From contig JAEOTO010000048.1 of the NCBI GenBank assembly GCA_016839805.1, forward strand, positions 1-30,225: a DNA stretch of 30,225 nt. The letters are read 5' to 3'. The notes beneath the pieces were generated by a model that was given only the letters and a program-made list of their open reading frames with translations, ran no database searches and had not been told where the DNA came from. Source of the stretch: Candidatus Hermodarchaeota archaeon (GTDB taxonomy: Archaea; Asgardarchaeota; Hermodarchaeia; Hermodarchaeales; Hermodarchaeaceae). The translations under genes were made by a program, and so were the position numbers. Within the stretch, counting starts at the first letter, position 1, and the number at the start of each line of letters is the position of its first letter. Shown here in pieces: positions 7,630 through 21,656 of the stretch.

Positions 7630-9288
7630 GTGCCTACCAATGATAGCCTTGAACGGCTTTTAGTCAACGGAGAAAACCGGAACACTGAGTTTAAACGAAT
7701 TCTAACTGACCGTGATGCTCTCGGCGACCGAAAGGCGAAACTTATCGCTCAGCTGAAATTAATTACAAGTGAGGGCGAAGGTCAATATGTTATAGGAATT
7801 GAAGATCTACATGGAAAAAACTGGGAAATTTTTGGTCTTACCCCAGAAGAAGTTCAATCAAGTAAAGACGTTCTACAATTACTTTGCGAAGAAGCGGGAA
7901 TCCAAATTCTCGAACAAACTCATTACACCACGGATAAGGGTATCGTAGTTGGTTTCAAAGTCGCTCGTATCATTTCACCAATGGTCCCTGAAACTCTGGG
8001 AGTGAATCTTGTTGGTCGCGTTAACAGTGGCAAAACCACACTAGCAGGAGTCCTCATCCAAGGACAGTTAGATAATGGTAGTGGTCAAGCCCGAGCAGTG
8101 CTACTAACCTATCCTCAAGAACTGAAACGCGGTCAAACAGCGGATCTCCATGTTACATTTGCTGCAATCGATAAAAGTGGGAAATTTATCACAATGAAAG
8201 CCCCCTTGGACAAGGCAAAACGGGCACAAATTTTGGATCGGTCTCACCGAATCATAACGATCTTTGATGCACCTGGACATCGAGAGTACGCTAAAACGAT
8301 GATTCGAAGTGTTCTCGGAGCGTCTGCGCAATATAGCCTGGTACTCATCCCATGTCTTGATGAGTACAAGTTGGTTACTGCCGAAGAACAACGCAGTGGC
8401 ATAACAAGACTGGATGATATTACTCGTGAACACCTGCTTTTAGTATCGAATCAACAGCTTCCTTTCCTTGTTGTGATAAACAAAGTTGATAATTGTAACG
8501 AAGCAATCCGTGATCGAATACAGAATCTTGTTTTTGAAACCATTAAGGAAATTGGACACGTTCCCCTTCGTATTACAGCAGAAGATGACGTGGGGATTAT
8601 TTGTCGTGAAATTGGACACCGTGTTGTGGTCCCTGTCTTTGAGGTTAGTTGTGTTTCAGGGCTAGGACTTGATCGGCTTCGTAATACTTTAGCGAGCCTT
8701 CCCTCACGAATTCCAAATGAGCGGGTTGAAAAACCAGCTCTAGCCTCAATTGATAAAGTGTATCGAGGAATTCGGGGAACGAATGTCGTCATTACAGGAA
8801 CAGTTCAAGAGGGCATCTTCAAACCTGGTCAAAATATCCTATGTGGTCCCGATAAAGATGGCCGATTTATGCGCGGAAAAATTGGGTCCATTGAAGTGTT
8901 CAAGAAACAAGTTGAACGTGTAAAAGCAGGCGATGTTTTCGGATTTGACCTCAAACGCCTTTCGCCAGAGAAAATCCGTAGAGGTCAAATTATCTGTGAT
9001 GAAGATGCAGATGTCAAGGCAGTAAGAGCCTTTGATACAACAATCATTGTTACAAGACACCCAACTAGAATTCGTCCTGGATATGAACCAGTTTTTCATA
9101 GTTCGACAATCCAACAACCAGTAATATTTGAAAAAATTTTTGATAAAGAATATCTTGTTGTTGGTGACGTGGCACGTGTTCGAATGATGTTCAAAAAAGG
9201 ACCTGAAATGCTCCGCGTCGGTGATCGCGTGGTCACCAGAGAAGCAAACACCCGATGCATTGGAACGGTAGTAGCACTTGTACGGTGA
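7630..9288 (+). CDS. GTPBP1/GTPBP2-like translational GTPase (EF-1alpha superfamily, archaeal GPBP)
   Basis: N-terminal GENRNTEFK and GEGQYVIGIED block typical of GTPBP1. G1 GRVNSGKTT, G3 DAPGH, G4 NKVD, G5 SCVSG, followed by EF-Tu-like domains II/III. The stop codon is supplied by the IS right end. Confidence 0.9.
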   Translation: MPTNDSLERLLVNGENRNTEFKRILTDRDALGDRKAKLIAQLKLITSEGEGQYVIGIEDLHGKNWEIFGLTPEEVQSSKDVLQLLCEEAGIQILEQTHYTTDKGIVVGFKVARIISPMVPETLGVNLVGRVNSGKTTLAGVLIQGQLDNGSGQARAVLLTYPQELKRGQTADLHVTFAAIDKSGKFITMKAPLDKAKRAQILDRSHRIITIFDAPGHREYAKTMIRSVLGASAQYSLVLIPCLDEYKLVTAEEQRSGITRLDDITREHLLLVSNQQLPFLVVINKVDNCNEAIRDRIQNLVFETIKEIGHVPLRITAEDDVGIICREIGHRVVVPVFEVSCVSGLGLDRLRNTLASLPSRIPNERVEKPALASIDKVYRGIRGTNVVITGTVQEGIFKPGQNILCGPDKDGRFMRGKIGSIEVFKKQVERVKAGDVFGFDLKRLSPEKIRRGQIICDEDADVKAVRAFDTTIIVTRHPTRIRPGYEPVFHSSTIQQPVIFEKIFDKEYLVVGDVARVRMMFKKGPEMLRVGDRVVTREANTRCIGTVVALVR

Positions 9289-9400
9289 ACTACCCCGCCC
9301 TAAAGGACGGAGCTTCCTGCTTCGACGCTTCAGCCAGCGCTGACAGCTCCACAGGCCCAACCCGAGGTTCCCTCGGTGACATGATGGACAACAGTCCCAT
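9265..9400 (-). ncRNA. Predicted omegaRNA/reRNA (scaffold overlapping the tnpB 3' end, plus flank-derived guide CGUACAAGUGCUACUACCGU)
   Basis: Established TnpB architecture. Scaffold blocks (+ strand GCTTCCTGCTTC, CCACAGGC and a hairpin around GTTCC) are conserved with the element at 21397. The 5' end is approximate. Confidence 0.65.
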
Positions 9401-10575
9401 CATCTTGATATTTAGTGCAGCATTAAGATCTCGATCCAGTAGTAACCCACAGACGGGGCATATCCACGCCCGATCTGACAGCGTGAGCTCATCGTTAAGG
9501 TACCCACAACCATGACAGCGCTTCGATGTCGGCGCAAACCGTCCCACCTCAATCAGGGTTACACCATACCACTCGGCTTTATACCATAACATCCCTAGAA
9601 ACTTATGCCAAGCGGCATCAGCGATCGACTTAGCCAGAATCCGGTTATGCATCATGCCACTAACGTTGAGACTCTCGACTATGATTGCTTGGTTCTCGCG
9701 AATCAATCGCGTCGAAAGCTTATGCTGAAAATCAGTCCGTTGGTTAAAGACGCGTTCATAGCAACGGGCCAGGCGCTGTCGCGCTTTTTCCCGGTTCCGA
9801 CTCCCCTGCGCCTTTTTGCTCAGTCTTCGATGCAGGCATTGAAGACGCTTCAGCGAGTTTTGGAGATATCGCGGATTCTCCACCTTCTCCCCCGTGGACA
9901 ATGTGACATAGGTCGTTAAACCCACATCAATCCCGACCGATGTCTGACTTGTTGCCTGTGGCTTTGGGGGAGGAGATTTTCCGTTTTCTACAACAATCGA
10001 GATGAAGAACTTGCCCGTGATGGTCGAAACGATCGTACACGTTCTGGGCGTACCCGTGAACCGTCGATGGAAGACTGTCTTCACCATCCCAATCTTTGGG
10101 AGGTATACCCGTCGAGTTGAAAAGCTGATTGTGAAGAACTGAGGCACATCAAAGGATTGGCGGTGCGCCTTGCGACGCTTGAACTTTGGGTATCCTGGCT
10201 GTTCCTTGCCTTGTTTGAGGCGACGAAAGAAGTGTTGGAAGGCTAGCTGGACCCTTTTGACTGCCTGTTGCAATGATTGTGAGAAGGCGTCTTTTAGAAA
10301 GGGGTGATCCTGCTTTAGTTCGATAAGGCGGTTGTTCAGGTCGTACCAACTGAGGTTCGTTTCATCCATCTCATGAGCAGTTTTTTTGGTTTCCAGTGCC
10401 CAGTTATAGACGAACCGACAGGCATCGATGGTCTTCCGGATTCGCGCACGTTGTGTTTGATTTGGGTAGAGGCGATACCGGAAGGTTCTGAGCATACCTC
10501 TAGGTTTGGCAACAGAGTATTTGAAGTCCGCAATTCATCCCCACCCTAAAGGACAGGGTCTTCTCGCAGTTTTCG
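9285..10575 (-). mobile_element. IS200/IS605-family element carrying tnpB only (IS1341-like), no tnpA
   Basis: Minus strand left end: TTAT|CGAAAACTGCGAG-AAGA-hairpin CCCTGTCC-TTTA-GGGTGGGG. Right end: GAAG-hairpin CTCCGTCC-TTTA-GGGCGGGG-TAGT-TCAC|. The AAGA/TTAT and GAAG/TCAC pairs fit the IS608-type guide/cleavage-site logic. No TIRs. Visibly more GC-rich than the flanks. Confidence 0.9.
9290..10495 (-). CDS. tnpB: RNA-guided endonuclease TnpB, apparently intact
   Basis: N-terminal FRYRLYPN HTH, GYPKFK, RuvC-I GIDVG, RuvC-II IIVESL, Zn finger CHGC..CPVC and RuvC-III DRDLNAA. All three catalytic acidic residues are present. Confidence 0.96.
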   Translation of the reverse strand: MLRTFRYRLYPNQTQRARIRKTIDACRFVYNWALETKKTAHEMDETNLSWYDLNNRLIELKQDHPFLKDAFSQSLQQAVKRVQLAFQHFFRRLKQGKEQPGYPKFKRRKAHRQSFDVPQFFTISFSTRRVYLPKIGMVKTVFHRRFTGTPRTCTIVSTITGKFFISIVVENGKSPPPKPQATSQTSVGIDVGLTTYVTLSTGEKVENPRYLQNSLKRLQCLHRRLSKKAQGSRNREKARQRLARCYERVFNQRTDFQHKLSTRLIRENQAIIVESLNVSGMMHNRILAKSIADAAWHKFLGMLWYKAEWYGVTLIEVGRFAPTSKRCHGCGYLNDELTLSDRAWICPVCGLLLDRDLNAALNIKMMGLLSIMSPREPRVGPVELSALAEASKQEAPSFRAG

Positions 10576-10594
10576 ATAAGTTTCGATTTGAGAT

Positions 10595-21244: not shown

Positions 21245-21387
21245 GGAGATTGGGGACTTCTGAATTTACAGTATCAATTCTATAAGGGCATAATAAGATG
21301 ATTAAGATTGTTCTTCATCTTCAACTCAAAAAGCAGAGAAAACATCATTAGCGAAAAAAAATGGAGGATTTGACTCAGTTTGTGGTT

Positions 21388-21617
21388 GTGGAGGCTGTGA
21401 ACTGCCTCGCCTTGAAGAGCGCGGCTTCCTGCTTCATCCCATCGGCTCGAACCGACTGGTCCACAGGCTCTACTCGCCGTTCCGGCGATGTTGCCCGGTC
21501 ACGGTGGTCCTTGGTTCTCGGACCGCGGATCGGGACCTCACCCTTAGCTGTCTAGGAACGGATTTAAACTCCACGATTCATCCTCGTCTTGAAGGGCAGG
21601 GTCTTCTCGTGGAGGCT
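21388..21617. repeat. 9-bp direct repeat GTGGAGGCT at both junctions of the miniature element (21388-21396 and 21609-21617)
   Basis: Read directly from the sequence. Confidence 0.9.
21397..21617 (-). mobile_element. Non-autonomous IS200/IS605-derived miniature element (PATE/MITE-like, 221 bp) retaining an omegaRNA-like scaffold
   Basis: Right end GTGAACTGCCTCGCCTTGAAGAGCGCGGCTTCCTGCTTC aligns with GTGAACTACCCCGCCCTAAAGGACGGAGCTTCCTGCTTC at 9285. Left end ATTCATCCTCGTCTTGAAGGGCAGGGTCTTCTCG..|ATAA aligns with ATTCATCCCCACCCTAAAGGACAGGGTCTTCTCG..|ATAA at 10533-10579. No coding capacity. Confidence 0.88.
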
Positions 21618-21656
21618 ATAAAGGTCCTTGCTATCATATGGGAGAGGTTAAGTGCG

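What the first reader, a model, noticed from the sequence alone, without database searches (positions are those of the whole stretch)
21377..21617. 221-bp mini-element looks like a stand-alone, self-promoted omegaRNA gene for TnpB in trans
Seen on the minus strand: TTAT, left-end hairpin, TTTAAA (21563-68), then about 25 nt later a long GC hairpin (~21494-21535), then scaffold blocks conserved with the tnpB 3' end, right-end hairpin and TCAC. In the full element the equivalent position (TTCAAATA, ~10518-25) lies about 23 nt before the tnpB ATG. The hairpins between the conserved blocks differ in sequence but keep their pairing (CCGAGG-TTC-CCTCGG versus TCGCCG-TTC-CGGCGA). Inference: the ORF was lost while the promoter and RNA scaffold were kept. 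The result is a minimal mobile guide cassette (~145-nt scaffold plus guide) that borrows both TnpA and TnpB; an intact TnpB with the same TTAT target lies 11 kb away.
Basis: partly seen in the sequence, partly recalled or inferred. Interest (0 to 1): 0.7.

Follow-up and report, generated by a model that had tools for sequence, protein, structure and literature searches.

The report
Gene-less TnpB guide-RNA mini-transposon
This is one of ten gene-less mini-transposons in an Asgard archaeon that keep a promoter and a guide-RNA scaffold for a DNA-cutting enzyme encoded elsewhere; that kind is known, but these also keep a small hairpin otherwise hidden inside the enzyme's own gene, which points to an RNA control element I found no description of.

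Summary
Observation confirmed. 21397-21617 (-) is a protein-free IS605-type element (PATE), one of 10 copies in this Hermodarchaeum genome; 33 were collected across related genomes. In 29 aligned copies the TATA box (88% identity) and scaffold core (89%) are kept, while the spacer between them drifts (36%) at fixed length. An expressed guide RNA is therefore likely, but untested. The kind is known (PMC3119063, PMC4615843, Meers 2023, PMC10691335), and this scan noted the family before.

Corrections: the scaffold is closer to a sister TnpB (84%) than to the neighbouring one (66%); no matching TnpA was found; the left hairpin is decayed; the first 9 bp are duplicated host DNA that rebuild the split putative TATA box of the GTPase gene (a sediment run holds the empty allele).

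New: the 5' hairpin's 9-nt loop GAGAACCAA is identical to a hairpin loop inside tnpB, just before the RuvC-II Glu codon. The motif recurs in three reading frames (37 of 57 Asgard tnpBs) and in some bacterial ones. It lies where an inhibitory mRNA segment was mapped in AmaTnpB (PMC10278001). Function untested.

The parts
21618..21621 (-). TTAT target motif (outside the element); on the + strand it is the ATAA of the putative host TATA box
   Evidence: 25 of 29 copies have TTAT at the left junction
21609..21617 (-). 9-bp host duplication AGCCTCCAC that replaces the usual 10-nt left-end linker and rebuilds the putative GTPase promoter GTGGAGGC-TATAA
   Evidence: same 9-mer at 21388-21396; single copy in an empty allele (run X2) and conserved in 7 element-free orthologous loci
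21582..21608 (-). left end: GAGAAGA block (AAGA = likely transposase guide for TTAT) and decayed hairpin
   Evidence: guide rule from own knowledge of IS608
21563..21574 (-). element's own promoter signature: GTGGAG + TTTAAA
   Evidence: TTTAAA in 23 of 29 copies, 88% identity, fixed 29-30 nt to the conserved GAGG; full elements have TTCAAAT in 9 of 10
21494..21539 (-). predicted RNA start (about 21539) and 5' hairpin P1 with the 9-nt loop GAGAACCAA (21519-21511)
   Evidence: loop exact in 23 of 29; own 3' arm folds better than swapped arms in 27 of 29
21474..21488 (-). omegaRNA stem 1; its GGAAC loop pairs with the 3' GTTCA (pseudoknot)
   Evidence: 99% paired; compensatory GGAGC:GCTCA in the C22 full element; same layout as ISDra2 (PMC10097598)
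21425..21467 (-). omegaRNA stems 2-3 (CCTGT...GCAGG) ending in GAAG, the likely transposase guide for TCAC
   Evidence: 97-98% paired, compensatory change at columns 183:190; sub-threshold RAGATH-18 match
21397..21424 (-). right-end hairpin and terminal AGTTCAC
   Evidence: 87% paired with many double changes
21377..21396 (-). predicted guide (host flank, upstream part of the GTPase promoter region)
   Evidence: 25% identity among copies, i.e. unrelated flanks
9285..10575 (-). full tnpB-only element of the same end family (tnpB 10495-9290, 401 aa, intact RuvC D/E/D and zinc finger): candidate partner in trans
9689..9697 (-). GAGAACCAA loop of a hairpin inside the tnpB coding sequence, 19 nt before the RuvC-II Glu codon; same loop as P1
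21660..22220 (+). Ras/Rab-like small GTPase gene whose putative promoter the element split (the 238-aa ORF from 21504 is an artefact of the insertion)

Best explanation
A non-autonomous IS605-type mini-element (PATE) that is a self-promoted guide-RNA gene. Shown by sequence: ends, TATA box at fixed distance from a conserved RNA body, ISDra2-like scaffold, copies at many TTAT sites, empty allele. Inferred: host polymerase starts near 21539; the RNA (5' hairpin P1 + about 100-nt core + flank-derived guide) is loaded by a TnpB of this end family made elsewhere; the complex cuts element-free alleles (TTAT + guide match) and repair copies the element back, which keeps selecting for the RNA even in copies whose left end has decayed. 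P1 reproduces a hairpin that lies inside tnpB mRNA and probably serves the same role in loading, processing or gating (speculative). This copy landed in the TATA box of a GTPase gene; a later imprecise repair at a 5-6 nt microhomology replaced its left linker by 9 host bases, restoring that promoter.
For: Conservation follows the RNA, not the mobility signals: TATA 88%, spacer 36% at fixed length, core 89%, left hairpin 52%, flank 25%. Scaffold stems 95-99% paired with compensatory changes; left hairpin weaker than right in 26 of 29 copies. Consensus TTTAAA in minis against TTCAAA in full elements. Pseudoknot co-variation in the C22 element. Intact TnpB in the genome. Empty allele matches the guide at positions 1-14; about 12 bp suffice for ISDra2 (PMC10097598). 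Standalone omegaRNAs work in trans (PMC10691335); a PATE RNA is expressed in Halobacterium (PMC4615843). GARAACCAA folds as an exact 9-nt loop at 9 of 97 genomic sites, all in minis or tnpB genes.
Against: No transcript, loading or cleavage data. The mini core is 66% identical to the local TnpB's own scaffold and 84% to a sister type not found in this assembly, so the local enzyme may not accept it. No cognate TnpA found, though the MAG is 87% complete. Several stems are nearly invariant and so carry little co-variation; copies are kin. The whole RNA folds only modestly better than shuffles (z -1.46). P1 and the coding hairpin share the 11-nt loop region but not detectable stem sequence.
Confidence: 0.6

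Rival explanations
1. The mini RNA is a TnpB decoy or inhibitor: a strong promoter makes many RNAs that carry the tnpB-mRNA hairpin fused to a scaffold, tying up or silencing TnpB; old immobile copies are kept because this dampens nuclease activity.
For: P1 loop near-invariant and identical to the coding-sequence loop. In AmaTnpB an mRNA fragment spanning the RuvC-II codon (nt 751-875) inhibits cleavage (PMC10278001). Copies are 74-81% identical, some sit at the same site in two species, left hairpins have decayed and transposase is scarce.
Against: The overlap with the Ama region is positional only: Ama has GAAAGCCAA there, its fold was not tested, and inhibition also needed the segment downstream of the Glu codon. 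The loop is kept in apparently active tnpB elements, so it need not be inhibitory. The 3' end that defines a guide is fully kept.
Confidence: 0.15
2. The RNA is an orphan: it fits only the sister TnpB type it came from, which is absent from this cell, so this copy is now inert and conservation reflects past selection.
For: Core 84% identical to the Thorarchaeota element L129 against 64-70% to 13 Hermodarchaeum-type elements; no such TnpB in the 15 genus MAGs searched.
Against: Every stem, the pseudoknot loop and the conserved blocks are shared with the local scaffold. A spacer drifted to 36% beside a core at 89% argues for long selection in this genus, where the local TnpB type is the one found. 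MAGs lose repeats.
Confidence: 0.15
3. This copy has become an RNA-guided regulator: TnpB with this guide binds TTAT + 9 matching bases at its own left junction, over the GTPase TATA box, without cutting, and represses the gene.
For: The only TTAT site in the genome with 7 or more seed matches is this junction; mismatches at 10, 12, 13, 15 should block cutting; a 10-nt guide binds without cutting in ISDge10 (PMC13507860).
Against: The match is explained by promoter repair: three such duplications in this genome all sit in TATA-like boxes. The arrangement is absent from all 7 orthologous loci and from a close strain, so it is not conserved. The TnpB is not nuclease-dead.
Confidence: 0.06
4. The conserved features are DNA-level only (transposase binding on single strands); no RNA is made.
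For: End hairpins are transposase signals by established mechanism.
Against: 45-46 bp elements with one shared hairpin exist at four TTAT-like sites, so the middle is not needed as end DNA; the left hairpin decays while the middle is kept; TATA and fixed spacing have no known role in transposition.
Confidence: 0.04

Closest known systems
PATEs of Haloquadratum walsbyi (PMC3119063) and the expressed PATE RNA VNG_R0052 of Halobacterium salinarum (PMC4615843)
   Same: No inverted repeats, near-terminal palindromes like those of IS605 elements, no ORF, heterogeneous copies, terminal-only versions of about 50 bp, UUCA-type loops.
   Different: Here a full ISDra2-like scaffold, a sharpened TATA box and the tnpB-type hairpin are kept; this copy has a secondary 9-bp duplication; expression not shown.
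PATE-like elements of Geobacillus stearothermophilus (Meers et al., bioRxiv 10.1101/2023.03.14.532601) and standalone omegaRNAs (summarised in PMC10691335)
   Same: Protein-free elements encoding omegaRNA, expected or shown to act in trans with an effector from another element; homing model for retention.
   Different: Asgard archaeon with archaeal promoter; no cognate TnpA found; scaffold derives from a sister TnpB type; 5' hairpin with the tnpB-internal loop is not mentioned in the passages I read.
ISDra2 TnpB omegaRNA (PMC10097598)
   Same: Stem 1 loop pairs with the 3' end in a pseudoknot, stem 2/3, terminal hairpin, flank-derived guide.
   Different: Shorter stem 3, TTAT/TCAC instead of TTGAT ends, extra 5' hairpin, own promoter instead of processing from tnpB mRNA.
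Inhibitory segment of AmaTnpB mRNA (PMC10278001)
   Same: A tnpB mRNA feature next to the RuvC-II codon; the Ama fragment 751-875 spans the position of our hairpin and holds an 8-of-9 match to the loop consensus.
   Different: Described in one ortholog, proposed to act by pairing with the omegaRNA, conservation left open; no hairpin-loop motif reported. Identity with our element is not shown.
RAGATH-18 RNA (RF03064) of IS607 TnpBs
   Same: Shared core blocks CCTGTGGA and GATGAAGCAGGAA.
   Different: 26.4 bits against a cut-off of 44.9; ends are IS605-type hairpins; no serine recombinase found in the assembly.

Membership tests
PATE (PMC3119063) | No terminal inverted repeats; palindromes near both ends | tested here: met
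PATE (PMC3119063) | Too short to encode a transposase | tested here: met
   221 bp; only a read-through of the tnpB tail frame and the artefactual extension of the GTPase ORF
PATE (PMC3119063) | Ends related to IS605-type transposons, with a 4-6 bp target motif | tested here: met
   79% and 70% identity to the ends of the tnpB element; TTAT in 25 of 29
PATE (PMC3119063) | No target duplication (family level) | tested here: met
   31 of 33 copies have no duplication of 6 nt or more
PATE (PMC3119063) | No target duplication (this copy) | tested here: inconclusive
   9-bp duplication present, but it replaces the 10-nt left linker instead of flanking an intact element, so it reads as a later repair event
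PATE (PMC3119063) | Strain-specific insertion | tested here: met
   empty allele in run X2 (one contig, depth 5) and in 7 orthologous loci
Standalone omegaRNA | omegaRNA scaffold without effector gene, different guides at different copies | tested here: met
Standalone omegaRNA | Compatible effector in the same genome | tested here: inconclusive
   two intact-looking TnpBs of the same end family, same fold but 66% core identity
Standalone omegaRNA | RNA is expressed | not testable with these tools
   promoter signature only
Standalone omegaRNA | RNA is loaded and directs cleavage in trans | not testable with these tools
   needs biochemistry
IS607 / RAGATH-18 reRNA | Rfam RF03064 above gathering score | tested here: not met
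   26.4 of 44.9 bits
IS607 / RAGATH-18 reRNA | Serine recombinase partner | tested here: inconclusive
   no PF00239 match in an 87% complete MAG
TldR-type RNA-guided repressor | Nuclease-dead TnpB | tested here: not met
   D190, E274, D356 present
TldR-type RNA-guided repressor | Guide-promoter match conserved across genomes | tested here: not met
   element absent from orthologous loci

The most novel reading that the evidence does not exclude
tnpB genes of several clades carry a conserved RNA hairpin (loop GARAACCAA) under the RuvC-II codons that controls TnpB loading, processing or activity, and this mini-element family has rebuilt a minimal transcript of promoter + that hairpin + omegaRNA, acting either as a self-gated guide or as a natural TnpB inhibitor. 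That would identify the conserved form of the inhibitory mRNA segment seen in AmaTnpB.
Probability: 0.3. Interest if true: 0.75.

Novelty: new variant of a known kind. Interest (0 to 1): 0.52.

Why it matters
Protein-free guide-RNA elements are known, so the headline is a well-supported Asgard example. The added value is that the mini-element acts as a natural deletion experiment: of 1.2 kb of tnpB it kept the 3' scaffold and one hairpin loop otherwise found mid-gene. This marks a nucleotide-level signal in tnpB, conserved across reading frames and seen in archaeal and enterobacterial genes, at the place where one study found mRNA-mediated inhibition and asked whether it is conserved. It gives a short, defined RNA to test, and matters for TnpB editors because codon optimisation erases it. 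Second, TTAT targets overlap archaeal TATA boxes; three short duplications in one genome rebuild such boxes and may be scars of TnpB-driven repair.

Tried and rejected
Sequencing runs: no RNA holder listed; this says nothing on expression. Rfam: only a sub-threshold RAGATH-18 match. Sigma-70 scan is not informative for an archaeon. Y1 transposase: none in this assembly; the single genus hit belongs to another IS605 family with other ends. Mini scaffold in viral contigs: none; TnpB relatives there: none confirmed; two 17-mer target matches in viral contigs are in the range of chance for so large a collection (my estimate) and were dropped. Six contexts of close TnpB homologs showed no adjacent tnpA. 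A tnpB-linked copy of the exact mini scaffold was not found in 301 phylum genomes. TGAA:TTCA as the pseudoknot: both invariant in minis, but the C22 element co-varies with the stem-1 loop instead. P1 as a remnant of zinc-finger codons: not significant in most copies. A conserved long-range partner for the GAGAACCAA loop: none consistent. A model of P1 finds only the 11-nt loop in tnpB genes (E 0.6 each), so common descent of the stems is not shown. A genome-wide promoter regulon for the guide: GGAG-NN-TATAA occurs at chance frequency. The identity figures printed had an offset error and were redone.

Full report
Observation. On the minus strand: TTAT (21621-21618), a GAGAAGA block, a left hairpin (21601-21582), TTTAAA (21568-21563), a long hairpin P1 (21534-21494), the stem TCGCCG-GAA-CGGCGA (21488-21474), stems 2-3, a right hairpin and TCAC (21400-21397). 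The neighbouring element (9285-10575) encodes a 401-aa TnpB with D190, E274, D356 and a zinc finger.

Host and family. Matching contigs in a genome of the same genus are titled Ca. Hermodarchaeum yapensis, so the host is an Asgard archaeon of that genus. The genome holds 10 copies of the mini (the nine others 74-81% identical to this one), two full elements of this end family and four 45-46 bp elements in which one hairpin serves both ends. The DNA matches 9 of 14 other genus MAGs; 33 distinct full-length copies were collected and 29 aligned. Earlier notes of this scan describe other copies of the family.

It looks like an RNA gene. Mean pairwise identity by region: TATA 88%, following spacer 36%, P1 73%, core 89%, terminal AGTTCAC 99%, left hairpin 52%, right flank 25%. 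The distance from TATA to the conserved GAGG is 29-30 nt in all 29 copies, the same as TATA to ATG in the full element, so the RNA should start near 21539 and give a 143-nt scaffold. Minis have TTTAAA (23 of 29); full elements have TTCAAAT (9 of 10). Scaffold stems are 95-99% paired; 13 of 41 predicted pairs show double changes. In P1 the variable arms fit their own partner better than swapped arms in 27 of 29 copies. The layout matches ISDra2, where the 3' end pairs with the stem-1 loop (PMC10097598); the C22 element shows the compensatory pair GGAGC:GCTCA. Kinship inflates such counts, and no RNA data exist.

Partners. The mini core is 66% identical to the scaffold of the neighbouring tnpB and 84% to that of a Thorarchaeota TnpB (P0044/L129, 61% protein identity), which also has a TTTAAA box. 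The family therefore descends from a sister type, not found in the 15 genus MAGs. The fold is shared, so cross-loading is plausible but open. No Y1 transposase was found in the assembly (87% complete) and the one in the genus belongs to another family. Left hairpins are weaker than right ones in 26 of 29 copies, and this copy's is decayed. Some copies sit at the same site in two species. Selection thus seems to act on the RNA more than on mobility, which fits homing into empty alleles (model of Meers et al.) or a regulatory role.

The insertion site. The 9 nt after TTAT equal the 9 nt after TCAC. A contig of run X2 begins at 21609 and continues with a sequence 21/28 identical to 21360-21387: an empty allele with one copy of the 9-mer (a single low-depth contig). 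It matches the guide at positions 1-14. On the plus strand GTGGAGGC-TATAA lies about 40 nt before the GTPase start and is conserved in 7 element-free orthologous loci (exact in 4), so it is very likely that gene's promoter. A normal left end would turn TATAA into GATAA; the duplication restores it. Two of 33 minis have such a duplication (0.0007 expected), and a third, of 7 nt, occurs at a tnpB element of another family; all lie in TATA-like boxes. All four copies with A after TTAT fall among the 10 of 28 sites that read TATAA before an opposite-strand ORF (P 0.01, post hoc). The close copies L019 and L038 end their linker in TCCAC, which the target shares, so a template switch at that microhomology explains the junction. 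TnpB cuts 15-21 nt from the motif, so an incompletely trimmed end is a natural source, but ordinary recombination with an empty allele could do the same. The resulting self site has mismatches at 10, 12, 13 and 15 and should be bound at most, not cut.

The P1 loop. The loop GAGAACCAA is exact in 23 of 29 copies. The same 9-mer lies inside the window's tnpB (9697-9689), in the codons R-E-N-Q-A, 19 nt before the RuvC-II Glu codon. All 15 close tnpBs use exactly these codons while neighbouring synonymous sites vary. RAACCA occurs there in 37 of 57 Asgard tnpBs in three registers (RENQ, AKNH, AKTK), against 2.4% per window elsewhere and a mean of 13.7 (maximum 24) after synonymous recoding. It folds as a hairpin loop in 33 of 37 (9 nt in 30), with mean z about -1.8 against recoded sequences, versus -0.35 for genes without it. 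The same hairpin is predicted in tnpBs of Methanohalobium, an E. coli plasmid and a Salmonella plasmid, but not in all ten tested. Genome-wide, 9 of 97 GARAACCAA sites form an exact 9-nt loop, and all nine are in minis or tnpB genes. Only the 11-nt loop region is shared with P1; stem sequences are not detectably related, so descent with drift and re-creation are both possible. In AmaTnpB, an mRNA fragment spanning this position inhibits cleavage, and the authors ask whether this is conserved (PMC10278001); the link is positional, with an 8-of-9 match. My paper searches found no description of the hairpin, but the library is incomplete.

Mechanism. Most likely (0.6) a self-promoted guide cassette that uses a family TnpB in trans to re-invade empty alleles, with P1 as a cis element of loading, processing or gating. 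Rivals: decoy or inhibitor RNA (0.15), orphan of an absent sister TnpB (0.15), promoter regulator (0.06), DNA-only relic (0.04).

Comparison. It meets the PATE definition at family level (PMC3119063), including terminal-only forms; a PATE RNA is expressed in Halobacterium; omegaRNA-bearing PATEs and standalone omegaRNAs acting in trans are published. It is not a RAGATH-18 member by score and not a TldR system. Verdict: new variant of a known kind; the retained tnpB hairpin and the promoter-restoring junction are the parts worth following. Interest 0.52.

Noticed in passing
window 9285-10579: The full tnpB element sits in the stop codon of the GTP-binding-protein gene 7630-9288: empty CGA TAA, filled CGG TGA, same protein end VALVR. 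TTAT targets overlap TAA stops and the right end supplies TGA.
   Followed up: yes
L011, L012, L013, L014 (C39, C19, C29, C45) and L033:304-350: 45-46 bp elements with one hairpin shared by both ends; GAGAAGA holds the likely guides for both TCAC (GAAG) and TTAT (AAGA) shifted by one base. Like the 52-bp terminal-only PATEs of Haloquadratum.
   Followed up: partly
L005:330-345 (G000 C4): Second mini with an 8-bp duplication, in a TATA array before a 181-codon ORF that earlier notes call tbp; A after TTAT is kept in 9 of 10 orthologous empty sites.
   Followed up: yes
G000 C26 about 95315 and 96730: tnpB of another family with a 7-nt duplication AACTTGT after TTTTAA.
   Followed up: partly
L073, L080, L083, L090: Paralogous small GTPase genes share the upstream motif GTGGAG-NC-TATAAG; the mini's own promoter also has GTGGAG before its TATA box.
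   Followed up: partly
window 21360-21387: The right flank differs from the empty allele of run X2 at 7 of 28 positions while the rest of that contig differs at 13 of 537; unexplained (guide-region drift, escape, or recombination).
   Followed up: no
L041 and L032; L023 and L024: Minis at the same site in different species of the genus, so some insertions are old; L023 has lost its left part and P1.
   Followed up: partly
L094 (G006 C14:139174-142322): Two tnpB elements of this family in tandem, both with in-frame stops.
   Followed up: no
L106 (G000 C22 about 23010): The C22 full element lacks a left hairpin; tRNA-like sequence abuts its promoter.
   Followed up: no
L191, L193, L195: The GARAACCAA hairpin is predicted in tnpB genes of Methanohalobium, E. 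coli and Salmonella plasmids.
   Followed up: partly
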